DNA from: a virus
Lineage: Duplodnaviria; Caudoviricetes
IMG/VR virus record: IMGVR_UViG_3300031841_003004
Location: 1-53,364 of that record
Reading direction: 5' to 3' (one strand)
Length of the DNA: 53,364 bases
The notes under the pieces were generated by a model. It searched no databases. It was given only the letters and a program-made list of their open reading frames with translations, and had not been told where the DNA came from. This document shows positions 3,001 through 53,364 of this stretch, piece by piece. A program made the position numbers and the translations under genes. Position 1 is the stretch's first letter. The number at the start of each line of letters is the position of its first letter.

Positions 3001-6000
3001 ATATCAGACATCCTCTGGCCCTCATTGTTGACCATGTCCTTGTAATTAGCGGAGTTCAGGTTCATGGCCCAGGCACCAATCTTATTTCCAAAAACAACCT
3101 GAGACATTACCCTCCCTCTGAACTTAACGTTCGGACCATCGAAAGGCGTCATAAGAAACTTCATTAGGTCTTTCCACCTAACATCTTGGTTTCCATAGAA
3201 GTTATCCCTAGCTCCAGTTGCCCTCTTTATTCCGTCCTTTACTATGGGGGACATGTTCTCATACCCATCCATGTTTCCGTTAACCAGATCCATGAGCTTT
3301 CTTAGGCTCACTCTAATCTGTCTCTTTGTCATTCCCTCCAGACCTGGGGCCCCTTCGCTGGCCTTTGTAGCCATCTTTATGAAGGACTCAGTGACTCCAA
3401 GGGGGTTGTCAACCTTGTACTTTTCCGACTCTTGAAGCATCCAGAAGGCGGCTTTAATGTTCGGGACAGCGCTGTTCTTGGCTGACGTAAGGGCCGCAAA
3501 GATGTTAAGTTTCGCTACGTTATCCTGAAGCGAACCAGTGATGACGCCGCTGTCGATCATCGACTGAACCTTAGGCCTCGACTCTGTCTCCCAATCGCTG
3601 AAGAAGTCAAGCGGGTTTCTGCCGCCGAAAGTCTCTGCCATTAGCTTTTCGTCAGCTATGTACTTGCCCATAAGGGACTTAAAGTGCGCCCTCCTGGATT
3701 CCTTGTCTGGGAATCGCTCCATGAGGTGCTTAAACATAACCTGATAAGCTACCACCCTGTTGTTCGGTTTGAACCCAGTAGCCTTACCAATCTCCTCCCT
3801 TATAAACTCAAGGTCAATAGGTGACGTACCGTTTTCTATGGCATCTTTGGAGATCAGTTGAGACGCCCTTACATCAGGGTTAGATCCATACCTAAACTCT
3901 TTGCCCAGGTCTTTGGCCTCCCTATCTATAATGGACGAAACGTACTTGGAGAAGGCCTTCAGCTTCTCGACCTCGTTTTTGTACCGAGGAGAATCAGTCT
4001 GATTTCGCCCTTCCATGACTTGAATCTTGGTGGACATGCCTCTCACCTTTCTGCGAATGGTAGAAAGAACAGCCTTACCAAGGATACCTTGAGAGACAGC
4101 AGCCGAAGACATTGCGTTAATGTCTTTTGCAATACCCATCGGGGTATTTATCTGAGTGCTTCGCCTCTTAGACTTATAGTCTTTTATTCTGTCTACGTCG
4201 ATTGTGGTTCCGTCCTCCGTTTCAAAGCCAAAGTAGTGCTGATCAGCACCCATATTGGTTGCCTTTTTCCACCAGTTTACGAAGTGCCATACGTCATTAA
4301 AGGTCTTGGTTATGGTCTCGCTACCTATGTCTTTCTTGAATCCGATGTCATACTTGTAGAACGTTTCCTCCATCCTTACGACAACCTTTCCGTCTTTGTT
4401 GACTGGAATCCTGGTGGGAGACACCATCTTGGACGCCCTGCTATTGCTTTGTGCTCTAGTTCCTTGAGTTCTAGAAGAAACAGAGGCCTTACCGTTCTTG
4501 GCAGCAGCAAACTTTCCAGCGATAGCAATGAGCGAATCTGTGTCTTTGATCGAGAACTCCTTACCTATTGCTCCGTAAGCAGCAGCAATCATCTTGTTGA
4601 TTGCGACACGGATCTTATCGACAGTCTTTAGGTTTACGCTGGAGGGGTCAGCAGCGAGAGCAGACAAGAATTCATGAACCTCCTCTTCAAAAAGCACAGC
4701 CTCAGAGACACCCTCGCTTCTGTAACTCTCAACCTTGGCGTCAATCCTCGCGAGAAGATCGGGGTCGTTGCTCAAGGCCTTTCTAATCTCTGATCTTATG
4801 CTGGCCGCCTTCTTGGGGTTTACGCTGTAGATGTGGGCCATCGGAAGAGCGGCATGAAGCACCTCTTCCATCACGGTTTCAGAGAACGTCTTCGTGCGAT
4901 TCAGAACCTCCGATTCAATGGCCGCGTTGTCTCTTATCTGAGATGGGTTTATGTGAATGGTGTTTGTGGTGGGGTCATACAGCCCGCCCCAGTTTCCGCT
5001 ATCAAACTCCATAGCGGTTTCTGAATCTGGGTAGACGTACATCTTGACTCCCAGATTGTCCAGCATTTTCTGCAAAGAATTAAGGGTCTTTGCTTCTGAA
5101 GACGTTATTCCAGCGACATCGGATCTCCAAGCAGGGTTCCCGTCTTTAGCCCTGGGCGTGCTCACGGCCTTCTCAGGAACCTTTCCAGTATCCACAGATC
5201 TGTTTTCAGTCGTCTCCTTGACTTCTGGCCTGGCATCTTTTACGGCTTCGTCTATGTCAGCGAACTCCGACTCAGTGCTCTTGGGTTCTTTCTCAACCTT
5301 TGACGCCTCCTCCTGAGCCATGTTCATGGCCTCGTCGTAAGACTCAACACGCTTGCCGTCACCGATCTTCCCCTCACCAAGGGTAAAGAATACGACATCG
5401 GGTTTACCCTTGAGGGGAGAGTTGTCTGCATCCCATCCTTCTGGAGCAAACTCAGGATTAAAGTCAACCCTAGCCACGGGCTTAAAGCCAGCGTCCACAT
5501 ATATCTCCTCAAGCTTCGTGGCGTATGCATCCATATACTTGCCGCCCTTCTCTTTAGATAGCTCAAGCATCGCTCCAGCAGCGCCCTTCATGGGGGAGTT
5601 AGGAGACTTGAAAAGACCTCCTATATACCCATCAGAAGTAACGTAACCTCCAGCCATTCCATCCTTAGACAGGAACAAGCTTCCTCCGTCGTTCAGGATC
5701 CTCTGTGCCTCTTCGAGAGACACGGGAGAAACCTGCAAGAACAGATTAGAACCCTTCTCCTCATCTGCTTTTCTTGCAAGCTCCATAGCGCTTACATAGG
5801 CATCTGCTGGAGCCTCTATAAAGTCGTTCACGCTAACCGAGCTAACCTCCGAATTGGACGTCTCTTCCGTAACATCAAGCTTACCGATAGACATATCAAG
5901 GGCTTGACGGGCCTCCTTCATCTTCTCTTCAGCAGCCCTAAATGCTGTTTGATCCTCTCCTCCTAAGTCCTCAAGGGCCGCCTCGTACTCAGCTTTAGCT

Positions 6001-45944: not shown

Positions 45945-46576
45945 TATTTCTCTAAGTATGATTTAATGGTTTCGAAGGCTTGGTAAGCCCTGGGGTTATA
46001 TCCCTGCATATCCTGTCTTTCTCTTGGGTTGTAGCGTGCCCTTGCGAAGTCCTCCTCGCTCCCCTCAAACAAAAGGTTTCGAAGCTTACCGTCAACGTAG
46101 TTTCTTCTGTACTGATCGTAGCCATCCTCAGCATACCCCTCCTCTCTATCCTTACTGTACCAGTACCTGATCTCCCCCTCGTCTAGGCTGCTGCCAAACT
46201 CCTGCAGCAACCTCCTGAACTGAGGGTCAGCATCGGCCATACCGTGCAGCAAGTCCAAAGCAACAGCTTGAGAATCGTTGGTATCGGGGTTTACCAGAAC
46301 CGTGTGCCTCCCCCTGGGGGACGGCCTGTCTACCACGCTACCAGAAGGGTATGTAATCGCCTCCTGATCGGGACCGTAATACTCGATGTCCCCTATACCA
46401 GTCAGGTCTCTAGTAAATTCCCTGTCTGGGACGACGCTAATGTCACCAAGCCTCCTCAGAGCAGGGAAACGCTGCAGAGCCTCACTCAAAAGACGGTCCC
46501 CCACCTCTTGATTAGATGGCATCTCCGCCAACCTGCCCAGCAGGTCCCCTACTTTACCGCCTTTGACTGGCCTCAT
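45944..46576 (-). CDS. Hypothetical protein
   Basis: Start MRPVKGGKV at 46576, after a TATATTTG box at 46581-46588. Confidence 0.55.
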   Translation of the reverse strand: MRPVKGGKVGDLLGRLAEMPSNQEVGDRLLSEALQRFPALRRLGDISVVPDREFTRDLTGIGDIEYYGPDQEAITYPSGSVVDRPSPRGRHTVLVNPDTNDSQAVALDLLHGMADADPQFRRLLQEFGSSLDEGEIRYWYSKDREEGYAEDGYDQYRRNYVDGKLRNLLFEGSEEDFARARYNPRERQDMQGYNPRAYQAFETIKSYLEK

Positions 46577-46705
46577 GACGCAAATATAACAAGATAGTAC
46601 TTGCGCCAGCACAGCAATACAGCTTCCAGACTTTCGTCCAACTCAAAAAACCTTTTGGGAAGCTTATCGCAACTCGGATGTCCATCATCGCGCTGAGCTG
46701 CTTGG

Positions 46706-46737
46706 CGAAGTTACAGGGAATTTTTGACATATGCAAG
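46706..46737 (-). promoter_or_regulatory. Leftward Bacteroidota-type promoter
   Basis: CTTG-N20-TAACTTCG on the minus strand. Confidence 0.5.
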
Positions 46738-47263
46738 TCTTTAAGCAAGATTCTAACGCATCCAAGCTAATTTGCTGTGTTAGAACAGAGTATCTGCTTA
46801 AAAAAGGGGGTGAGTAATACAGATCCTGGGGAGGGTACGTACCTATACACGCACGCGCACGTACACCCAAACGCATTTGCGTACCCCGACCCCCTGCATA
46901 ATGCGCACCGTCGGCAAAACTTTCAGCGTTTTGGTATCTGCTTGGTAGTCAAGGGGTTAACCTACTTAAGTTGCAGCACCGCTTGAGGTCTCTTTCACCC
47001 CGACTTCATTGCCGCTACGGGACACACCCTACCCCCCTCACCTCACACACGAAACCACACTCCATTCCGCTTGCATTATACACGCCGAATCACGCAGGGT
47101 TTCACACAGGAAGCTTCGCTTCGCGAGGGGCTTCGTCGAATCAGGTTCGTCAAGCTGTTTGGCACGATGGTTGGTATCGCCGCGTACATCATACTAATCT
47201 TCGCGTGTTTTCACGCGCATAATGCGATCAGGAAAAATCGCGCACCAGATTGTCGGCTTCAGA

Positions 47264-47297
47264 TTTGAGATTGTCCGAGAACTTAGCCTTAACTTTG
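47264..47297 (+). promoter_or_regulatory. Early promoter 1 (Bacteroidota -33/-7)
   Basis: TTTG-N22-TAACTTTG before the first plus-strand gene. Confidence 0.65.
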
Positions 47298-47343
47298 TCG
47301 GGCCGTTCAGCACCGAAGCTGTCGGTTTCAAACACTCGCCGTC

Positions 47344-47964
47344 ATGAACATGACCTACACACTCTCTGCGGAGCAGAAGTCCTGCATCACCCTCCAAGGC
47401 CGTAAGGCCGCCAACAAGGCTCTCTGGGCCGCTGAAAAGGCCGACCGCAAAGCGGTTGCCGCGTGGGCTTCGAAGAAGCCTCGCAAGGCCAAGAAGATTG
47501 CCAACAAGCTGGACAAGCTGAAGGCCGCTTCTATCGAAGCCGTGTATGCCTCTGTGTCACAGACACACTCACGGGGCGTAGCCCTCCTTCCCACGAAGCC
47601 GCTGGACTCCAAGGTCGAGTCGGTGACTGCCAAGCGCCTCAAGCGCAAGTCCCGTAAGGGACCGAAGGACTCCAATGGCAAGTTGGAGGCCAAGGCTCAG
47701 CGGGAGTCCCTCGCCAACACACAGAAGCGTGCCGCGAAGACGGCGCCCAAGGTTGACGTGGTCTGGGACGAGGCTACCAACCGCCGTGTCGAAGTGGAGG
47801 TCGAGGTGAAGAACCCGACCAAGGCACACGCCATCCGCAAGACCTGGTGCGACTTCTCCGAAGTTCCTGCGGGGTTGGAGATGGAGGATGCAGTCCGCTG
47901 GGCTTCCCTTCAGGAGGGCTACGGCTGTGCCGCTGACGAGGTGTCCTTGGACGATTGCCTCTGA
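47344..47964 (+). CDS. First early protein, Lys/Ala-rich with acidic tail
   Basis: 206 aa, GC3-rich codons, downstream of promoter 1. Confidence 0.7.
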   Translation: MNMTYTLSAEQKSCITLQGRKAANKALWAAEKADRKAVAAWASKKPRKAKKIANKLDKLKAASIEAVYASVSQTHSRGVALLPTKPLDSKVESVTAKRLKRKSRKGPKDSNGKLEAKAQRESLANTQKRAAKTAPKVDVVWDEATNRRVEVEVEVKNPTKAHAIRKTWCDFSEVPAGLEMEDAVRWASLQEGYGCAADEVSLDDCL

Positions 47965-47976
47965 CCCACACAGACA

Positions 47977-48018
47977 AGCGCACATGGTGCTTGGGGAGGT
48001 TCGATTCCTCCCTGCGCT
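47977..48018 (+). ncRNA. tRNA-like minihelix element 1
   Basis: AGCGCA...TGCGCT acceptor-like stem stacked on a GGGAGG-TTCGATT-CCTCCC T-arm, with linker CATGGTGCTTG. Intergenic. Confidence 0.65.
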
Positions 48019-48033
48019 CAAACACACAGACAC

Positions 48034-48129
48034 ATGAACAAGCACACACAGGATGTCCTTGAGGACATCATCGACACCATCCCCTTCGTCATCGTGACGA
48101 CCTTCTTCATCCTCCTTTTCACCCTCTGA
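48034..48129 (+). CDS. Small membrane peptide (31 aa)
   Basis: MNKHTQDVLEDIIDTIPFVIVTTFFILLFTL, preceded by ACACACAGACAC. Confidence 0.6.
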   Translation: MNKHTQDVLEDIIDTIPFVIVTTFFILLFTL

Positions 48130-48140
48130 CACACAGACAC

Positions 48141-48284
48141 ATGAGAGCTAAACTTTCCCTTCGGGATTACTGCCACAAGCAGATTCGCTTCTACAAGCAT
48201 CTCCTGCAACACTCACACACAGAGGCCCAGAAGAAAATGGCCAAGGACAACATCGAATACTACACCAACCTCGCAAACACATGA
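48141..48284 (+). CDS. Small early protein (47 aa)
   Basis: MRAKLSLRDYCHKQIRFY..., preceded by ACACACAGACAC. Confidence 0.6.
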   Translation: MRAKLSLRDYCHKQIRFYKHLLQHSHTEAQKKMAKDNIEYYTNLANT

Positions 48285-48502
48285 CAGACATGACAGACAC
48301 ACGTACACTCAAGCAGGTGAATGCTCAAGAGCAACTCCACCGCCTCGTCACTTGGGACTCCATCAACGAGTTCGTCGTCCGCACCTTCGAGGACACAGAC
48401 ACACGACTCCGTGTCCTGCGGGCCTTGGAGAACTCCCCGATGGACACCGACCACATCGATTGGCGCGGCATCGTGGACTACGCCATCCGCAAGTTCCTCT
48501 GA
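48281..48502 (+). CDS. Small early protein
   Basis: ATGA overlap and GC3-rich codons. Confidence 0.65.
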   Translation: MTDMTDTRTLKQVNAQEQLHRLVTWDSINEFVVRTFEDTDTRLRVLRALENSPMDTDHIDWRGIVDYAIRKFL

Positions 48503-48531
48503 CACACACACACACACAAGATCGACCACAC

Positions 48532-48732
48532 ATGATGAAACGACTCTCCAACCGCTCCCTGAGCCTGCTCAACTTCACCTCCCTGATGGGTGTGTGTGGG
48601 TTGACCACCATCCCTCTCGGCTACTTCGGCGAATGGGCCATTGTCCTCTCGTGGCTCGTGTCCATGTGCCTGTGGATTGAGTCCGACTTCGAGCAGGGAC
48701 GGCGCGGCATTCACCCCAACGGCAATGTTTGA
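48532..48732 (+). CDS. Small membrane protein (two hydrophobic segments)
   Basis: MMKRLSNRSLSLLNFTSLMGVCGL...WAIVLSWLVSMCLW, with a CA-rich leader. Confidence 0.6.
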   Translation: MMKRLSNRSLSLLNFTSLMGVCGLTTIPLGYFGEWAIVLSWLVSMCLWIESDFEQGRRGIHPNGNV

Positions 48733-48745
48733 CAAAGACACACAC

Positions 48746-48922
48746 ATGATGATTGACATCCTGAAGGCGGCGGCCTACCTCAACGCAGAACCCCTGTTCA
48801 CCTCCCTCGGCTCGTCCGTGTTCCGCCTCCCGTGTGGCGACTGCGTGATGTACACAGACACGGAAGTGGCACAGATGGCCCGCCAGCAAGAGGCCTTCGA
48901 AGCAATCTACCCTAAAGGGTAA
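48746..48922 (+). CDS. Small early protein
   Basis: MMIDILKAAAY..., preceded by AAGACACACAC. Confidence 0.6.
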   Translation: MMIDILKAAAYLNAEPLFTSLGSSVFRLPCGDCVMYTDTEVAQMARQQEAFEAIYPKG

Positions 48923-48931
48923 GAAATTAGA

Positions 48932-48964
48932 TTTGGAAATGTGGGGTCGGTGTGCTTAACTTAG
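48932..48964 (+). promoter_or_regulatory. Early promoter 2
   Basis: TTTG-N21-TAACTTAG. Confidence 0.6.
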
Positions 48965-49014
48965 CGGTCCGATTCGGCACCAACCCAATCAAACATTCAA
49001 ACACTCACAGACAC

Positions 49015-49194
49015 ATGAAAGTCAACTTCGACATTCGAATCGCGTCACTATACGCCATCATCGGGGGATTCGTCAGCCTGTTCACCTCCTGCATCCTTGA
49101 GGTCGCCACACTTGCACAAGTGGGTGTGGTTGGCATCTTCGCAGGGGTGGCTCTGACTGCCCTCGCCATCATCATCGACACCTTCAACCTCTGA
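49015..49194 (+). CDS. Small two-helix membrane protein
   Basis: MKVNFDIRIASLYAIIGGFVSLF...VGVVGIFAGVALTALAII, preceded by CACAGACAC. Confidence 0.7.
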   Translation: MKVNFDIRIASLYAIIGGFVSLFTSCILEVATLAQVGVVGIFAGVALTALAIIIDTFNL

Positions 49195-49205
49195 TACACA
49201 CAGAC

Positions 49206-49727
49206 ATGGAATACATCAAAGCCTTCGAGTACCCTCACTTCAACCTCATTGCCGAGTGCTATGGTCGCACCCTTGCACACGGAGGTGACACCATCCTCAT
49301 GACCCCTGGGCACACACGCTACACCTACAAGTGTGGAACCCTGAACTACAACAAGATGCCGACCGACCCGTGGCGTCCGTGTCATGGCTACGCCGTGGGT
49401 GGTGTGGTCCCCGCAATCACCATCTCCATGATTGAGTTTAACGAAGGCTCCATGGAGTGGGCTACCGCACACCCACAGGTCCTGTGGAAGAAGTTCAAGC
49501 GGGCCTTCGAGCAGACTTGGCACGCCGCCTACGAACACGGATGGAAGCCTGACCACCCCCTGTGTGTTGGCACATGGGTGAATGGCGAGGACATCGTCTT
49601 CGACGTGGTCACCCTCGTGGACGACCAATCTGTGGCCACACGCCTCGGAACTGAGCGCGGTGAACTCTGCATCTACTCCATCGAAAAAGGGGAGGAAATC
49701 ACCTGCCCCGTCCCCCTGAAATCCTGA
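49206..49727 (+). CDS. Early protein, possible SAM-lyase-like fold
   Basis: GYAVGG...VGTW...VFDVV...A.RLG.ERGE.CIY..EKGEEI. Fold assignment is tentative. Confidence 0.5.
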   Translation: MEYIKAFEYPHFNLIAECYGRTLAHGGDTILMTPGHTRYTYKCGTLNYNKMPTDPWRPCHGYAVGGVVPAITISMIEFNEGSMEWATAHPQVLWKKFKRAFEQTWHAAYEHGWKPDHPLCVGTWVNGEDIVFDVVTLVDDQSVATRLGTERGELCIYSIEKGEEITCPVPLKS

Positions 49728-49739
49728 ACACACAGACAC

Positions 49740-49901
49740 ATGACAAAGCACGACTTCCTCGGCATCTGCATGGAGTGCGAAGTTGACCCGAACCTCGTGG
49801 TCGATATCGCCGAAGTGCGTGACCTGCTCAAGCGAGACAAGGACAACGCCAAGATTGAGAACCAACTCCTCCTGCATACCCTCATCCACAAACACTTCTG
49901 A
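49740..49901 (+). CDS. Small early protein (53 aa)
   Basis: MTKHDFLGICMECEVDPNLVV..., preceded by ACACACAGACAC. Confidence 0.6.
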   Translation: MTKHDFLGICMECEVDPNLVVDIAEVRDLLKRDKDNAKIENQLLLHTLIHKHF

Positions 49902-49904
49902 GAC

Positions 49905-50189
49905 ATGAATTACACAGACTACAAGCGAGACCTCGCCATCCGCATACTCCGCAAGATTGACGGGCTTGGTCAGTTCCAAAACATGGACGACCTCACCCGC
50001 ATTGACAAGACCATTGAGGCCCTCGACGAGTTCCTCCCCACAGACGACAGTGCCGCGCGTGGACACACAGAGTTCGTCGATCTGGCGTGTGTGTACGAGG
50101 TCGACGAATGCCCCAACTGCGGCAAGAAAGAAGTCCAATACAGCGACACCTACGAATTCTGCAACGAGTGCGGATACACCTTCAACTGA
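49905..50189 (+). CDS. Early protein with C-terminal zinc ribbon
   Basis: CPNCG...CNECG. Confidence 0.7.
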   Translation: MNYTDYKRDLAIRILRKIDGLGQFQNMDDLTRIDKTIEALDEFLPTDDSAARGHTEFVDLACVYEVDECPNCGKKEVQYSDTYEFCNECGYTFN

Positions 50190-50196
50190 CACAGAC

Positions 50197-50349
50197 ATGA
50201 CGAAAGACGAAATCCAAAAGGTGCAACAGGCACTCATGGTGGCAGACATGTTCTTCACGGCTGTCCCTGCATCCAAGGGTGCAGACATCAACCCGCTCGG
50301 CAAGATGCTGGGTGAAGCAATTCAAATCACACTCAAGTACACAGACTGA
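50197..50349 (+). CDS. Small early protein (50 aa)
   Basis: MTKDEIQKVQQALMVADMFF..., preceded by ACACAGAC. Confidence 0.6.
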   Translation: MTKDEIQKVQQALMVADMFFTAVPASKGADINPLGKMLGEAIQITLKYTD

Positions 50350-50513
50350 TGTACACGCTCATCGGCAAAGCCCCCGCCCGCTCCGCCCGACCAGGGTTGG
50401 AGGTCACGCTCTACACTCACACACACAGGAGTGAATGTGAACGAGCGTGGGCCTTCTTCTCCCTGCACTACGACGACCTTGAAATCATTACCCCTAAAGG
50501 GGTAGCAAAATAA
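50349..50513 (+). CDS. Small early protein (54 aa)
   Basis: TGATG-coupled; MYTLIGKAPARSARPGLEV... Confidence 0.5.
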   Translation: MYTLIGKAPARSARPGLEVTLYTHTHRSECERAWAFFSLHYDDLEIITPKGVAK

Positions 50514-50514
50514 A

Positions 50515-50546
50515 TTTGGTAGATAGGAACATTTGCCTTAACTTTG
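50515..50546 (+). promoter_or_regulatory. Early promoter 3
   Basis: TTTG-N20-TAACTTTG; near-duplicate of promoter 4. Confidence 0.75.
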
Positions 50547-50586
50547 TCCACGGCAATTCAGCCAACGACATTCAAAACTCACACCC

Positions 50587-51309
50587 ATGAATACGAACCT
50601 TCGCATCGCCCCTCACTACTTCATCATCGACTCCATCGGTGGTATGCACGAGGGCTACTCAGACACCACCTGCCGCCGCGTCGAGGACGTGGTGACCCCC
50701 GAACTCGGCAAGGCTCTTGTCGAGGAGTACATCGACCAATGGATTCACGACAAGCAGGAGTACTACTCTGGCCTGTGTGAAGAGATGGGTGTTGACGACA
50801 GGGTTGTCAAGGTCATCCACGACGAGTGCAAGTACGGCGGGTGGCACAGAGTGTGCTTCGTCCCTGACAACATCGCCCCTGACCTGCATTCTGACGATGG
50901 CGAGTGGCTCGACTTCGAGTCTGCATACACGCTCTTCATCCAAGTGTATGACGGGGTCATGCTCGGCGACGGGGTCGTGGTCTACGACCAGATGGACGAC
51001 ATGGTCCGCACCATCACACACAAGTCCACCGCCATCCGCATGGCAGAGGAGGGCATCTCCCTCGACGTGGAACGAATCAAGGCTCTCCTGTACAACAAGC
51101 CTGAACGTCACATCGACATGAGCTACCTGACTACCAATCTCATCTACTGCTACGACTGCCTCGCTGAAGTGGTGCGTGACCTTGAGTGGCCTCAGGATGT
51201 CATGGTCGACATCGACGACTCCTGCACCCACTACTTCCCTGTGCAGAACTGCAAGCGCCTCGTGTGGCTGAACGGAAGCCGCATCCAAACCGAAACCGAA
51301 TACGCATGA
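50587..51309 (+). CDS. Acidic early protein, unknown function
   Basis: 240 aa, Asp/Glu-rich, GC3-rich codons. Confidence 0.7.
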   Translation: MNTNLRIAPHYFIIDSIGGMHEGYSDTTCRRVEDVVTPELGKALVEEYIDQWIHDKQEYYSGLCEEMGVDDRVVKVIHDECKYGGWHRVCFVPDNIAPDLHSDDGEWLDFESAYTLFIQVYDGVMLGDGVVVYDQMDDMVRTITHKSTAIRMAEEGISLDVERIKALLYNKPERHIDMSYLTTNLIYCYDCLAEVVRDLEWPQDVMVDIDDSCTHYFPVQNCKRLVWLNGSRIQTETEYA

Positions 51310-51536
51310 ACAAGTACACAGAAGCGGACGTGAACCGCACACACAAAGCCTCAGTCGAGGAACTCATCGACATCTGCCTCAACAATTGGAGGGAGGTATC
51401 TGACCCGCTCGAAGCACGGACATGGTATGCCGTAGCCGCACAGCTTGAGGGCATCAGGGAGGCTGACTACTCCATGTATGACATGGAGCGGATCCTCGCA
51501 CAAGCAAACATGAACGCACAAGAACAGAACGCATGA
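51306..51536 (+). CDS. Small early protein
   Basis: MNKYTEADVNRTH..., with ATGA overlaps on both sides. Confidence 0.6.
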   Translation: MNKYTEADVNRTHKASVEELIDICLNNWREVSDPLEARTWYAVAAQLEGIREADYSMYDMERILAQANMNAQEQNA

Positions 51537-51886
51537 CAACTACTTACGAAATCTACGACTCCATCCGCAGGGAGTACTACATCCGTGACGAGGAGACTGT
51601 CCTCGACGACCTCTTCGATATGCTCGACGAGGTGGTTGACCAACGGCTCGGCGGTTGGGTCTACAACAACTTCGGCCTGAAAGCGTATGTCGGCGACCAC
51701 TGCAACGACGACACCCACCTCGGCACAGCCAAAGGTGTGCGTGAAGTCCTGGCGTGGGTGTGTGGCCCACACTTCCAAGCAGAGGGTGACAAGGAGGCAT
51801 ACCAAGACCTGCTTGAGCGCATCCAACAGGAGGAAGCAAACGGGCCAGCATGGAGTACGAGCAAGCTGGACTATCCCTCCCTGTAA
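51533..51886 (+). CDS. Acidic Ocr-like (DNA mimic) protein, putative
   Basis: 117 aa. [22 protein letters not shown] resembles the T7 gp0.3 Ocr N-terminal helices by eye. Confidence 0.5.
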   Translation: [117 protein letters not shown]

Positions 51887-51907
51887 ATCAGCAACTTAGA
51901 AAATAAA

Positions 51908-51939
51908 TTTGGTGGATACGAACATTTGATGTATCTTTG
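51908..51939 (+). promoter_or_regulatory. Early promoter 4
   Basis: TTTG-N20-TATCTTTG. Confidence 0.75.
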
Positions 51940-51966
51940 TCCACGACAATTCAAACCTCACAACAC

Positions 51967-52182
51967 ATGAAACAACCCTCATCCACCGAGGCGCACATCG
52001 CCGACCTCAACCGAGACAAGGTTCACCCTGACGTTGCCATCCACACCCACGTCTGCTTCATGAGCATGATGCGGGACTGGATTGACGAGATGGACCCGTT
52101 CACGGACTGGGAAGACTTGGGACGACAGGACCTCATGGACATCATGGAAGGCCTCATGGATATGTACGAACAGAAACTCTAA
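51967..52182 (+). CDS. Small acidic, Met-rich early protein
   Basis: Start MKQPSS after CACAACAC. Confidence 0.6.
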   Translation: MKQPSSTEAHIADLNRDKVHPDVAIHTHVCFMSMMRDWIDEMDPFTDWEDLGRQDLMDIMEGLMDMYEQKL

Positions 52183-52194
52183 ACACTCACAGAC

Positions 52195-52491
52195 ATGAAT
52201 CGCAAACTCATCGCATACCTCGACGCAGTAGAAGGCTACGTCAACTCAATCGCCCGTGACATCCGTAACAACCACGTGAACTACGCCGTGGCTATGTACG
52301 ACGAGGACGGACCCTTCACTCGTCTCATCCCCCTCCCCTCCCCGCAGACCGCAGGGACGGAGACACAGAAGCGGGACTACTCACTCATGAAAGCCCGCGA
52401 GATTGTGGAAGACATGAAGACGTGGAACCCGCACCTGAACTACGACACCTTCGGCACCCTGCCCAATGAATTTGAACAAGACCCTGCCTGA
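52195..52491 (+). CDS. Small early protein
   Basis: Preceded by CACTCACAGAC. Confidence 0.65.
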   Translation: MNRKLIAYLDAVEGYVNSIARDIRNNHVNYAVAMYDEDGPFTRLIPLPSPQTAGTETQKRDYSLMKAREIVEDMKTWNPHLNYDTFGTLPNEFEQDPA

Positions 52492-52585
52492 CGGCAAGTA
52501 CTTCAAGCAACCCGCTAACCGAGTACACAAAGACAAGTCCAAGTACACACGAAAGAAAAAGCACAAGAACAATGCTGAACGATAA
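52466..52585 (+). CDS. ArfA-like small basic peptide (39 aa), putative
   Basis: MNLNKTLPDGKYFKQPANRVHKDKSKYTRKKKHKNNAER fills the gap between two genes. Confidence 0.5.
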   Translation: MNLNKTLPDGKYFKQPANRVHKDKSKYTRKKKHKNNAER

Positions 52586-53213
52586 CACCAACACCCGCGC
52601 CTTCGCCGAATCCTTTGGCCGCGCCATCTGCCACGGCATGAACATCGTCACCTGTGACGCTCTCCTCAACCCGCAGTCCTACGGCTTCTACTACTACGCC
52701 AATGACGCGGAAGCCACCGTCATCTCACCCACGGATCCTGAGGGTGCGTACTCGTACTGGGCTGGCGAACTGCGCGAGGCACAGGCTCTTGCCGAGCGGT
52801 ACGGCCAAGACCCCGCCACCTACGGCATCATGATGACCTACAACCACGGACGTGGGTGCATCTACCTGAACCTGGTCCGTGTCGAGTACATGAAGAGCCG
52901 CGCCTTGGACATGGCAGAGAACGATGGGGTGCAATGCCCGCACATCATCACGGAGTTCGGACGCAACCAACCGAACAGGCGCATCTCCCTCGACGAGGAG
53001 GGTCGTACCCCATACCCACAGGATGAGGCGGGGCGTGCATTGGAAGATGCAGGGCGCAACCGAGAAGACGTGGAGGACGCGGCAATTCTGTTCCGAGACC
53101 TCGGCTTCACCTCCGAGAAGGGGACGAACCCTAAGGGTATCGACCTCGAAAAGAAGTTCAGCAATCTTGCTGAGCAGGACTCGCAATGTGACGAGTTCGA
53201 CGAGTGGGAGTGA
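52572..53213 (+). CDS. Acidic early protein, unknown function
   Basis: 213 aa, GC3-rich codons. Confidence 0.7.
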   Translation: MLNDNTNTRAFAESFGRAICHGMNIVTCDALLNPQSYGFYYYANDAEATVISPTDPEGAYSYWAGELREAQALAERYGQDPATYGIMMTYNHGRGCIYLNLVRVEYMKSRALDMAENDGVQCPHIITEFGRNQPNRRISLDEEGRTPYPQDEAGRALEDAGRNREDVEDAAILFRDLGFTSEKGTNPKGIDLEKKFSNLAEQDSQCDEFDEWE

Positions 53214-53224
53214 CACCCCACACA

Positions 53225-53287
53225 TGATGCGAATGGTTGACCCCTGTGTGTCTGGGGGGTCGGAGGGTTCGAGTCCCTCCCGCATCA
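53225..53287 (+). ncRNA. tRNA-like element 2 (no D-stem)
   Basis: TGATGCG...CGCATCA acceptor stem, AATGGTT linker, GACCCC...GGGGTC hairpin and GGAGGG-TTCGAGT-CCCTCC T-arm. Confidence 0.7.
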
Positions 53288-53291
53288 CACC

Positions 53292-53352
53292 TGTTGCCTA
53301 CGTGTCAGAAAGAGGGGCAACACTCATCGGAGGCTGACACCTCATGGATGAG
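53292..53352 (+). ncRNA. Two adjacent hairpins with complementary (kissing) loops
   Basis: Stem TGTTGCC/GGCAACA encloses GTGTCAG. Stems CTCATC/GATGAG and GAGG/CCTC enclose CTGACA. Confidence 0.55.
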
Positions 53353-53364
53353 CGGCGTGAGAGG

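What the first reader, a model, noticed from the sequence alone, without database searches (positions are those of the whole stretch)
53225..53287. Second D-arm-less tRNA-like RNA with a non-canonical anticodon-position hairpin
Seen: a perfect 7-bp TGATGCG/CGCATCA stem, linker AATGGTT, a hairpin GACCCC...GGGGTC around a GT-rich loop, then a T-arm GGAGGG-TTCGAGT-CCCTCC. It follows a stop codon and CA-rich spacer, as element 1 does. The loop sequence TGTGTGTCTG is close to complementary to the CA-rich leader motif (CAGACACACA-like) found before early genes. Inference: a family of tRNA mimics with a variable middle arm, possibly an antisense regulator presenting a loop that pairs with the early-gene leaders.
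Basis: partly seen in the sequence, partly recalled or inferred. Interest (0 to 1): 0.85.

Follow-up and report, generated by a model that had tools for sequence, protein, structure and literature searches.

The report
Phage tRNA look-alike with extra arm
A marine phage carries a conserved 63-base RNA fold that copies the top half of a tRNA but has no anticodon; it most likely marks where the host's tRNA-trimming enzymes cut the phage's early transcript, and it decodes nothing.

Summary
At 53225-53287 (+) there is a 7-bp acceptor-like stem, the linker AATGGTT, a 6-7-bp hairpin with a 9-11-nt loop, and a 6-bp T arm with a canonical T loop. It is not a tRNA: ARAGORN gives no call in any mode, and Rfam gives nothing above threshold. 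It is not chance either. Six distinct homologues exist in viral and metagenome contigs. A wider set of 14 tRNA-like elements pairs in 162 of 162 acceptor/T-stem cells, with double changes at 10 of 12 pairs (0 of 500 shuffles reach this).

The middle arm varies across the family: absent, a GNRA-capped stub, the present long arm, or larger inserts. In related phages these elements and true tRNAs (Met-CAT, Arg-CCT, Arg-TCT) occupy the same slots around conserved structured RNAs.

My best reading (0.55) is a tRNA-derived "punctuation" element that is cut by RNase P and RNase Z, like the t-elements of plant mitochondria. No cut has been shown.

The antisense idea is only partly supported. The loop complements CAGACACA at four start codons, but the one distant homologue has an unrelated loop with no such match.

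This scan has noted tRNA top-half mimics in phage early operons before, on other DNA.

The parts
53225..53287 (+). D-arm-less tRNA-like element (long-arm class). By a 12-bp acceptor/T ruler the predicted mature RNA would run from G53226 to discriminator A53287.
   Evidence: Sequence. MFE fold. Covariance model R1 scores it 71.5 bits, while true tRNAs score 19 bits or less. Covariation.
53225..53231 (+). Acceptor-like stem, 5' strand. It pairs with 53281-53287.
   Evidence: 7 of 7 pairs are kept in all 7 aligned sequences. Two pairs change on both sides in L062.
53232..53238 (+). Linker AATGGTT that replaces the D arm. Its GG is inferred to dock on the T loop, as G18 and G19 do in a tRNA elbow.
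   Evidence: Invariant in 7 of 7 sequences. Across 14 family members A9 is invariant and G11, G12 and T13 are at least 90% conserved. The docking is inferred, not tested.
53239..53261 (+). Middle arm: a 6-7-bp GC-rich stem with the loop TGTGTGTCTGG. It is not an anticodon arm.
   Evidence: All stem substitutions in close variants keep pairing (GC to GU, AU to GU). The loop core is unchanged in 5 close variants and replaced in L062.
53262..53280 (+). T arm: a 6-bp stem with the loop TTCGAGT. It matches GGTTCRANYCC.
   Evidence: One T-stem pair changes on both sides in L062. In the 14-sequence set 3 of 5 T-stem pairs change on both sides.
53281..53287 (+). Acceptor-like stem, 3' strand. It is followed by CA, and no CCA is encoded.
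   Evidence: The four true phage tRNAs parsed also lack an encoded CCA and have CA after the discriminator.
47977..48019 (+). Element 1: a minihelix member of the same family (6-bp acceptor, linker CATGGTGCTTG, 6-bp T arm, no middle arm).
   Evidence: R1 scores it 51.2 bits. Syntenic copies in L072, G001 and G003 carry a compensatory T-stem change.
53288..53364 (+). 5' part of a roughly 160-nt conserved structured RNA ("RNA-B"), cut off by the end of the record. The element forms its upstream border.
   Evidence: In the consensus fold of 5 full copies, 6 of 45 pairs change on both sides. Slot table.
53204..53221 (+). 5-bp hairpin GTGGG/CCCAC. Its loop holds the stop codon of the upstream gene (TGA 53211-53213).
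   Evidence: Sequence. Folded in relatives. L004 has GAGGG/CCCTC, so the second pair changes U-A to A-U.
48027..48036 (+). Leader CAGACACATG at a start codon. It is one of four such sites (48027, 48134, 49008, 49733) that complement the loop. Candidate target only.
   Evidence: Predicted 9-bp duplex of -14.4 kcal/mol. No evidence that the pairing occurs.

Best explanation
The element is a tRNA-derived "top-half mimic". It keeps the parts of a tRNA that the maturation enzymes read: a 12-13-bp coaxial acceptor/T stack, a canonical T loop, and a GG-bearing linker that can close the elbow. It has lost the D arm and any anticodon.

It is transcribed as part of the plus-strand early operon of an uncultured Flavobacteriia-type podophage. 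I propose the following steps:
1. Host RNase P cuts at its 5' side, between U53225 and G53226. This frees the upstream mRNA.
2. RNase Z, or an equivalent 3' activity, cuts after discriminator A53287. This creates the 5' end of the adjacent structured RNA (RNA-B).

On this view the element is a punctuation mark. It does the job that genuine tRNAs do in the same slots of sister phages.

Shown: the structure, its conservation and covariation, family membership, the lack of decoding features, and positional interchange with true tRNAs. Inferred: recognition and cleavage by RNase P and RNase Z, the elbow contact, and the exact cut sites.
For: (1) The top half is under selection. In 14 family members 162 of 162 acceptor/T-stem cells pair, 10 of 12 pairs change on both sides, and 0 of 500 shuffles reach this. 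Slid registers pair only 40-68%.

(2) In the long-arm class, 99.2% of cells pair and 3 pairs are compensatory (2 of 500 shuffles).

(3) The linker A-GGT is conserved across classes.

(4) The bottom half is dispensable. The same acceptor and T arm occur with no arm (L073 8525-8567), with GNRA stubs (L002, L009), and with large inserts (L072, L085, L086). One form is cloverleaf-like, and ARAGORN calls it tRNA-His(GTG) with a poor D stem.

(5) Slots are interchangeable:
- Of 17 loci holding RNA-A or RNA-B, the 3' border could be read in 15. It is tRNA-Arg in 11 and a tRNA-like element in 4.
- The 5' border is a tRNA-like element in 12, tRNA-Met in 2, and nothing within 260 nt in 3.
- Several loci are near-identical, so these counts are not independent.
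- After the homologue of the 213-aa gene, L002 and L009 have tRNA-Met where the window and L004 have this element.

(6) Element 1 and the RNA-C-linked elements lie between a stop codon and the next leader plus ATG.

(7) It lies on the same strand as the early genes. No CCA is encoded, and CA follows the discriminator, as in the phage's true tRNAs.

(8) There is precedent. Plant-mitochondrial t-elements carry the same GGTTCRANYCC motif, and their ends coincide with mapped mRNA ends (PMC1920247, passages read). RNase P also cuts phage M3 RNA and P1/P7 C4 RNA (PMC11143913, passage read).
Against: - No RNA end has been mapped. The only public runs that hold the region are stored as contigs, which cannot show ends or strand.
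- Folding energy of the single sequence is not better than shuffles (z = -0.84).
- Three of 17 loci have RNA-A or RNA-B with no tRNA or mimic upstream, so a 5' handle is not obligatory.
- Complete relative G002 has no family member, and neither does the 64%-complete G004, so the elements are accessory.
- The stack is 13 bp if the outer U-A pair forms, one more than a tRNA's 12.
- A pure processing role does not explain why the 9-nt loop core is unchanged in all five close variants, or why it matches the leader motif.
- The host and its RNase P and RNase Z are unknown.
Confidence: 0.55

Rival explanations
1. Trans-acting antisense regulator on a tRNA scaffold. The excised ~62-nt RNA presents its 9-11-nt loop to the ACAGACACAUG start regions of several small early genes and blocks their translation, as a timer. 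Processing by RNase P and RNase Z would then only be its maturation route. The P1/P7 C4 RNA works in this way.
For: - CAGACACA occurs 7 times on the + strand, all within 47560-49733.
- Four sites abut the ATGs at 48034, 48141, 49015 and 49740, with a predicted 9-bp duplex of -14.4 kcal/mol.
- Shuffled loops of the same composition reach the observed 8-mer count in 5 of 1000 trials (window), 6 of 1000 (L072) and 11 of 1000 (L073).
- The loop core TGTGTGTCT is unchanged in 5 of 5 close variants, while the stems took three pair-preserving changes.
- GT-rich sequence is unusual on this C- and A-rich strand.
Against: - The distant homologue (L062 type) has an unrelated loop with 0 complementary 8-mers in its contig. 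Its 7-mer count is matched by 648 of 1000 shuffles.
- On the L004 locus the match is not above shuffles (512 of 1000).
- Other family members carry tetraloops or no arm.
- Leaders containing CACAGACA occur in G001 and G005, which lack the long-arm element.
- Any (TG)n loop will match the (CA)n-rich leaders.
- The loop may be an expanded remnant of an anticodon loop; compare CTGTGAC in the cloverleaf-like L073 element.
- There is no expression or binding evidence.
Confidence: 0.15
2. Decoy, sponge or protective cap. The tRNA top half binds a host or phage factor that recognises the tRNA elbow or acceptor end. Candidates are a defence toxin that acts on the acceptor end, the CCA-adding enzyme, T-loop modification enzymes, or RNase P itself. 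Alternatively it simply shields the ends of neighbouring RNAs from exonucleases, with cleavage not being the point.
For: The structural conservation is the same as for the best explanation. The elements sit at the ends of conserved structured RNAs. The location in the early operon fits host takeover or counter-defence. Ten early ORFs have no Pfam family, so the region's biology is unknown.
Against: - No candidate partner was identified.
- Interchange with ordinary tRNAs in the same slots is explained more simply by a property that all tRNAs share, namely being cut out.
- Having one or two copies per genome is few for a sponge.
Confidence: 0.15
3. Decaying pseudo-tRNA: a tRNA gene of the phage's tRNA island that lost its D arm and anticodon loop and is drifting without function.
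For: - It lies in a tRNA island.
- At another slot the same acceptor and T arm exist both as a cloverleaf-like tRNA-His(GTG) call and as stubs. This suggests reductive evolution from tRNAs.
- Presence is patchy among relatives.
Against: - Compensatory changes keep both top-half helices.
- It is 62/63 identical to L004 where the adjacent coding DNA is 72% identical.
- All observed stem changes preserve pairing.
- Drift would not do this.
Confidence: 0.08
4. A genuine but odd decoding tRNA (D-arm-less, with an enlarged anticodon loop), or a tRNA-gene fragment marking an integration site (attP).
For: Perfect acceptor stem and T arm. Weak resemblance to tRNA-Sec (20 bits).
Against: - ARAGORN makes no call in standard, relaxed (-ps80), metazoan-mitochondrial or tmRNA modes.
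- There is no 7-nt loop, and the loop sequence differs between homologues.
- Both acceptor strands are present, unlike an att core.
- The 24-nt T-arm/acceptor stretch has 0 exact matches in one genome of each of 185,579 species, and the family pattern also has 0.
- No tyrosine integrase was found in the record, which is 79% complete.
Confidence: 0.03

Closest known systems
t-elements of plant mitochondria (Forner et al. 2007, PMC1920247; abstract and passages read)
   Same: Both are non-canonical tRNA-like folds with the conserved GGTTCRANYCC T-arm motif. Both are embedded in longer transcripts next to coding regions. True tRNAs do the same job at other positions. The plant elements are proposed, and partly shown, to direct RNase P and RNase Z cuts that make mRNA ends.
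   Different: The plant elements are organellar and unrelated in sequence, and their ends were mapped experimentally. The present elements are phage-encoded, much reduced (43-64 nt), share a conserved A-GGT linker, also flank structured non-coding RNAs, and have no mapped ends.
mascRNA / MEN-beta tRNA-like RNAs (Rfam RF01684). Their biology is recalled, not read here.
   Same: Both are ~60-nt tRNA-like folds with an acceptor stem, T arm and a short middle hairpin but no working anticodon. The mammalian RNAs are cut out of a longer RNA by RNase P and RNase Z. RF01684 is the best Rfam match for this element.
   Different: The score is only 20.8 bits against a gathering score of 42.5 (E = 1.7 over 8.4 kb; E = 0.072 on a 341-nt stretch of L004). 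This is resemblance of shape, not membership. The known family is mammalian and nuclear.
C4 antisense RNA of phages P1/P7. It is named as an RNase P substrate in PMC11143913 (passage and reference list read); its mechanism is recalled.
   Same: Both are phage-encoded small RNAs matured from a longer operon transcript at a tRNA-like stem. In C4 the loops pair with sites in the same operon.
   Different: There is no sequence or Rfam relationship. C4 has no T arm. Here the pairing is only a computed complementarity, and it is not conserved in the distant homologue.
D-arm-less or armless mitochondrial tRNAs of nematodes and mites (PMC6158502, PMC2797822, PMC7609411; search listing only)
   Same: The D arm is replaced by a short linker, while the acceptor stem and (in some) the T arm are retained.
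   Different: Those tRNAs keep a 7-nt anticodon loop and decode. This element has a 9-11-nt loop that differs between homologues. ARAGORN's mitochondrial mode does not call it.
tRNA top-half mimics between phage early genes, noted earlier in this scan on other DNA (for example e1-3446769, e1-3269161, e1-3458200). These are unchecked AI notes.
   Same: They are acceptor/T-arm minihelices in phage early operons, and follow-up agents read them as cut signals. One note concerns a Flavobacteria-type phage in which the element ends a structured RNA.
   Different: Those notes describe arm-less minihelices. The present element adds a conserved third arm, forming a three-way junction, and shows direct slot exchange with true tRNAs. 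I did not examine their sequences.

Membership tests
Canonical tRNA (Rfam RF00005 / ARAGORN) | Cloverleaf with a D arm; score above the family threshold | tested here: not met
   There is no RF00005 hit at 53225-53287, at gathering score or at E up to 10. ARAGORN makes no call in standard or relaxed modes. Only a 7-nt linker lies between the acceptor stem and the middle stem.
Canonical tRNA (Rfam RF00005 / ARAGORN) | 5-bp anticodon stem with a 7-nt loop | tested here: not met
   The stem is 6-7 bp and the loop 9-11 nt. The loop is TGTGTGTCTG in the close clade and TTAGTGGAAT in L062.
Canonical tRNA (Rfam RF00005 / ARAGORN) | 7-bp acceptor stem stacked on a T arm with a TTCRANY loop | tested here: met
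D-arm-less mitochondrial-type tRNA | Recognised by ARAGORN's metazoan-mitochondrial models, which allow D-arm loss | tested here: not met
   aragorn -mt and -mtx found nothing in 53181-53364.
tmRNA | tRNA-like domain whose two halves enclose a tag reading frame and pseudoknots | tested here: not met
   aragorn -m found nothing. Rfam tmRNA matches only the T loop of L004, at 9.2 bits against a gathering score of 47. The two acceptor strands are 49 nt apart.
mascRNA-menRNA (RF01684) | Score at or above the gathering score of 42.5 bits | tested here: not met
   20.8 bits in the window and 20.7 bits in L004.
t-element-like processing signals (functional class) | Non-canonical tRNA-like fold containing GGTTCRANYCC | tested here: met
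   GGTTCGAGTCC at 53266-53276. The motif definition comes from PMC1920247.
t-element-like processing signals (functional class) | Lies within a longer transcript at the border of a cistron or another RNA, in slots that true tRNAs can also fill | tested here: met
   That it is co-transcribed is inferred from strand and spacing.
t-element-like processing signals (functional class) | RNA ends coincide with the element's ends; cleavage by RNase P / RNase Z | not testable with these tools
   Only assembled contigs of RNA runs were available, with no read ends.
Phage tRNA-like family defined here (model R1) | Acceptor stem, A-GGT linker and T arm; R1 score well above that of true tRNAs | tested here: met
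   71.5 bits, but the element is in the training set. Members not in the training set score 31.6 bits (L072 4684-4776), 31-54 bits (G001, G003, G005), and 23.3 bits for one copy cut off by the end of locus L067. True tRNAs score 19 bits or less.
attP / tRNA-gene fragment | Identity of the 3' half to a host tRNA gene; integrase nearby | tested here: not met
   0 exact matches in genome contigs. No PF00589 match in the record, which is 79% complete.

The most novel reading that the evidence does not exclude
The element is cut out as a stable ~62-nt tRNA-shaped RNA. Its third arm is a programmable antisense loop. In this phage clade the loop pairs with the ACAGACACAUG start regions of at least four small early genes and shuts them off once the distal end of the early operon has been transcribed. 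That would be a tRNA-scaffolded riboregulator. The family's variable middle arm would then be a slot in which different phages install different effector loops.
Probability: 0.13. Interest if true: 0.8.

Novelty: new variant of a known kind. Interest (0 to 1): 0.55.

Why it matters
If these elements are cut by RNase P and RNase Z, phages of marine Flavobacteriia use tRNA punctuation, a principle known from mitochondria, to divide early transcripts and to release small structured RNAs.

Three consequences follow:
- It would explain why tRNA-finders miss conserved "half tRNAs" in phage genomes.
- It would give a simple rule for predicting RNA ends in uncultured phages.
- It would point to three unannotated structured RNAs (RNA-A, RNA-B and RNA-C) that the phages take care to excise.

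The long-arm variant adds a concrete and cheap test of whether a tRNA scaffold can carry a regulatory loop.

My three full-text searches turned up no description of such a family in phages. That is not proof that none exists. This scan has noted the general kind before on other DNA.

Tried and rejected
- DNA similarity to the 50,697 deposited phage records found no match for 52000-53364 or 47000-53364. A capsid-region protein finds only Flavobacterium, Cellulophaga and Maribacter phages, at 29-30% identity in the rows listed and under 60% in all 85 records.
- Exact-pattern scans for the element's 3' half in viral contigs gave 0 and then 1 stretch. The looser pattern gave 54 stretches. ARAGORN of them ordinary tRNAs, and only L012 and L062 belong to the family. 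A differently relaxed pattern found only the same two.
- The metagenome scan gave 15 stretches: 10 family members and 5 unrelated.
- Public RNA runs: 18 runs were listed, all stored as contigs. I laid four of them. One RNA-library contig (X6, 377 nt) spans 53202-53364 and continues into a second T-arm/acceptor copy and then a tRNA-Arg-like sequence. X7 (151 nt) covers from 53263 onward and X8 (193 nt) from 53299 onward. Contigs show neither ends, strand nor transcription, so I draw nothing from this. The parts without cover mean nothing.
- Rfam at permissive thresholds gave no family for RNA-A, RNA-B or RNA-C.
- Pfam found nothing in 10 early ORFs.
- RNA-A and RNA-C motifs are absent from the window.
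- Rejected readings: decoding tRNA, mitochondrial-type D-arm-less tRNA, tmRNA, attP fragment and chance hairpins. Reasons are given under rival explanations and the membership test.
- I considered a loop-loop contact between the element's GUGUC and the GACAC loops of the upstream hairpin and of RNA-B. It is only 5 bp, so I did not pursue it.
- Supplementary files of papers were not consulted.
Full report
WHAT THE WINDOW IS. The window is a complete IMG/VR virus record of 53,364 bases, linear and about 79% complete. Long genes fill the minus strand from 3 to about 46.6 kb, including an open frame of at least 2,742 aa. Small genes on the plus strand run from about 47.3 kb to the end. A structural protein finds only phages of Flavobacterium (68 records), Cellulophaga (15) and Maribacter (1), plus one unclassified phage record; the rows listed show 29-30% identity and all 85 are under 60%. 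There is no DNA match to deposited phages. G+C rises from about 0.49 to 0.55 in the plus-strand region, and that strand is rich in C and A. Ten of its ORFs have no Pfam family.

THE OBSERVATION. The minimum-free-energy fold of 53215-53300 is that structure: a 7-bp acceptor-like stem, a 7-nt linker, a 7-bp middle stem with a 9-nt loop (6 bp and 11 nt if the U-G pair is not counted), and a 6-bp T arm abutting the acceptor stem, at -32.4 kcal/mol. Energy alone does not separate it from shuffles (z = -0.84). The case therefore rests on comparison with relatives. ARAGORN finds only tRNA-Arg(TCT) and tRNA-Ile(TAT) on the minus strand near 39.7-40.0 kb. It calls nothing at the element in standard, relaxed, metazoan-mitochondrial or tmRNA modes. 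Rfam at gathering score finds only those two tRNAs. At E up to 10 the element gives mascRNA-menRNA at 20.8 bits (threshold 42.5) and tRNA-Sec at 20 bits (threshold 47). The T-arm motif GGTTCRANTCC occurs four times in the window against 0.26 expected: twice in the tRNAs, once here and once in element 1 at 47998.

HOMOLOGUES. The 213-aa gene upstream has homologues at 77-83% identity in five viral contigs. In all five the gene is followed by a small RNA island:
- L005 and L006 have tRNA-Arg(CCT) alone.
- L002 has tRNA-Met(CAT), a conserved ~130-nt RNA ("RNA-A") and tRNA-Arg(CCT).
- L003 has RNA-A and tRNA-Arg(TCT).
- L004 has the same D-arm-less element as the window, followed by a ~160-nt RNA ("RNA-B") and tRNA-Arg(CCT).

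The window is cut off inside RNA-B. Pattern scans added more copies. The element exists in six distinct versions. Five are close, with stem changes GC to GU, AU to GU, and CG to UG with a 1-nt shorter G run, and one has T loop TTCGATT. One is distant (L062 type): acceptor TGGTGTA/TACATCA, T stem GGGTGG/CCATCC, the same linker AATGGTT and T loop, and a different loop, TTAGTGGAAT. Against L004 the element is 62/63 identical. The coding DNA before it is 172/240 identical with 24 gap columns, the spacer is 5/11, and the RNA-B part is 71/77.

COVARIATION. On the seven-sequence alignment, 99.2% of cells pair and three pairs change on both sides. All three come from L062, so this is one lineage. Only 2 of 500 shuffles reach this.

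A FAMILY WITH A VARIABLE MIDDLE. Scanning relatives for T-arm motifs outside called tRNAs showed the same design in several forms:
- Minihelices with no middle arm: element 1 in the window, its copy in L072 with a compensatory T-stem change, L009 10128-10172, and L073 8525-8567. The L073 copy has the very acceptor and linker of the present element and sits after RNA-B in place of tRNA-Arg.
- Elements with a short GACCC-GNRA-GGGT stub (L002, L009), or slightly longer (L062 12405-12458).
- Elements with 30-60-nt inserts (L072 4684-4776, L085, L086).
- One 75-nt cloverleaf-like form that ARAGORN calls tRNA-His(GTG), with a poor D stem and A1-U72 (L073 12965-13039).

The stub stem (GACCC/GGGT) matches the base of the long arm here (GACCCC/GGGGTC). 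The long arm therefore looks like an extension of the same helix. In a 14-sequence alignment the acceptor and T stems pair in 162 of 162 cells, and 10 of 12 pairs change on both sides. None of 500 shuffles reaches this, and slid registers pair 40-68%. In the linker A9 is invariant, and G11, G12 and T13 are at least 90% conserved.

A covariance model built from this alignment scores family members at 31 bits or more. This includes members outside the training set: L072 4684-4776 at 31.6 bits, and five hits at 31-54 bits in complete relatives. One copy cut off by the end of locus L067 scores 23.3 bits. True tRNAs score 19 bits or less. The window has exactly two members. Of the four relatives at least 90% complete, G001 has 2, G003 has 1, G005 has 2 and G002 has 0. 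The 64%-complete G004 has 0.

NOT A HOST tRNA OR AN att SITE. The 24-nt T-arm/acceptor stretch and the family pattern each have 0 matches in one genome of each of 185,579 prokaryote species. The record has no tyrosine integrase.

WHERE THE ELEMENTS SIT. Element 1 and its syntenic copies lie between a stop codon and the leader plus ATG of the next gene. The stub and insert forms follow a conserved ~75-nt RNA ("RNA-C") and precede a leader plus ATG. For RNA-A and RNA-B I tabulated 17 loci:
- The 3' border could be read in 15. It is tRNA-Arg in 11 and a tRNA-like element in 4.
- The 5' border is a tRNA-like element in 12, tRNA-Met in 2, and nothing within 260 nt in 3.

Many of these loci are near-identical, so the counts show a pattern and are not independent events. 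True tRNAs and the mimics are thus positionally interchangeable. The simplest property they share is being substrates of the tRNA end-processing enzymes. Like the phage's own tRNAs, the mimics encode no CCA and are followed by CA.

MECHANISM PROPOSED. The 12-13-bp acceptor/T stack and T loop are the elements that RNase P, RNase Z and the CCA-adding enzyme are known to read. This rests on established knowledge; the RNase P review PMC11143913 was read only in passages. The conserved GG linker could add an elbow contact, which is inferred. I therefore read the element as a punctuation signal. RNase P would cut 5' of G53226 and release the upstream message. A 3' cut after A53287 would create the 5' end of RNA-B.

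The closest described analogues are the t-elements of plant mitochondria. They carry the same GGTTCRANYCC motif and coincide with mapped mRNA ends (PMC1920247, passages read). None of the cuts is shown here. The public RNA runs holding the region are stored as contigs only.

THE ANTISENSE IDEA. The complementarity is real and specific:
- CAGACACA occurs seven times on the plus strand, all within 47560-49733.
- Four sites run into the ATGs at 48034, 48141, 49015 and 49740, which start ORFs of 31-59 codons. The predicted duplex is 9 bp.
- Shuffled loops of equal composition do as well in 5 of 1000 trials (window), 6 of 1000 (L072) and 11 of 1000 (L073).

Several results count against it:
- On the L004 locus the match is not above shuffles.
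- The distant homologue's loop matches nothing in its own contig. Its leaders are of a different type.
- Tetraloop and arm-less family members cannot work this way.
- Complete relatives with leaders containing CACAGACA lack the long-arm element.
- A (TG)n loop will tend to match (CA)n-rich leaders. The cloverleaf-like relative has CTGTGAC in its anticodon-like loop, so the present loop may be an expanded remnant; this is inference.

I keep the antisense role as a clade-specific possibility at about 0.13-0.15.

COMPARISON AND NOVELTY. The element is not a member of the tRNA, tRNA-Sec, tmRNA or mascRNA families by score. It works most like t-elements and mascRNA, and if the loop matters, like P1 C4 RNA. 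Three full-text searches gave no description of such a phage family. This scan's own notes record many tRNA top-half mimics in phage early operons on other DNA: 154 notes hold the search words and eight were shown. Those are unchecked AI notes and I did not test them. They agree with my reading but are not independent evidence. The points particular to this finding are the conserved third arm, the direct slot exchange with genuine tRNAs around conserved structured RNAs, and the loop-leader match.

VERDICT. The family idea is supported and the regulator idea is unproven. The best explanation is a tRNA-derived processing signal (0.55). It is a new variant of a known kind, with interest 0.55.

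Noticed in passing
window 53288-53364 (cut off); full copies at L004 3694-3857, L011 1045-1201, L069 639-805, L076 119-281, L073 8568-8729 (-): RNA-B is a ~160-nt conserved structured RNA with four helices. In its consensus fold 6 of 45 pairs change on both sides. No Rfam family matches. Where the border can be read, a tRNA-Arg or a tRNA-like element always follows it.
   Followed up: partly
L002 3732-3864, L003 3629-3753, L008 9921-10047 (-), L009 13087-13213, L062 12275-12404 (-): RNA-A is a ~125-133-nt RNA that occupies the same slot as RNA-B in other relatives. It has a variable 5' hairpin and a highly conserved 3' domain. In L009 the palindrome CTGCAG is replaced by GTGCAC, so it remains a palindrome. 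No Rfam family matches. It is absent from the window.
   Followed up: partly
L072 about 4777-4860 (-), L085 about 630-713, L086 about 1420-1500, L002 upstream of 857, L062 upstream of 12458 (-): RNA-C is a conserved ~75-nt hairpin-rich RNA. It lies between a stop codon and a tRNA-like element whose middle arm varies widely. It is absent from the window.
   Followed up: no
window 53204-53221: A 5-bp hairpin presents the upstream gene's stop codon in its loop. In L004 one pair changes on both sides (GTGGG/CCCAC against GAGGG/CCCTC), even though the gene's C-terminus has diverged.
   Followed up: partly
L073 12965-13039 (-): A 75-nt cloverleaf-like element has the acceptor and T arm of the stub class. 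ARAGORN calls it tRNA-His(GTG), but it has A1-U72 and a poor D stem. It may be an intermediate between a real tRNA and the reduced mimics.
   Followed up: partly
L019, L023, L026, L046, L056, L064, L066 (unrelated viral contigs): Seven contigs share a conserved tRNA-like sequence that ARAGORN does not call as a tRNA. It contains a D-loop-like AAATGGTTGTCTA, a hairpin and a GGTTCGAGTCCGG T arm. This looks like a different, unexamined family.
   Followed up: no
window 46000-53364 against 1-46000: G+C is about 0.55 in the plus-strand small-gene region and about 0.49 elsewhere. AT skew turns positive there. None of 10 ORFs tested in this region has a Pfam family.
   Followed up: no
RNA-run contig in X6 (record 5): A relative in a public run has RNA-B followed by a second T-arm/acceptor copy and then directly by a tRNA-Arg-like sequence. 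This is a third arrangement of the slot (mimic, RNA-B, mimic, tRNA).
   Followed up: no
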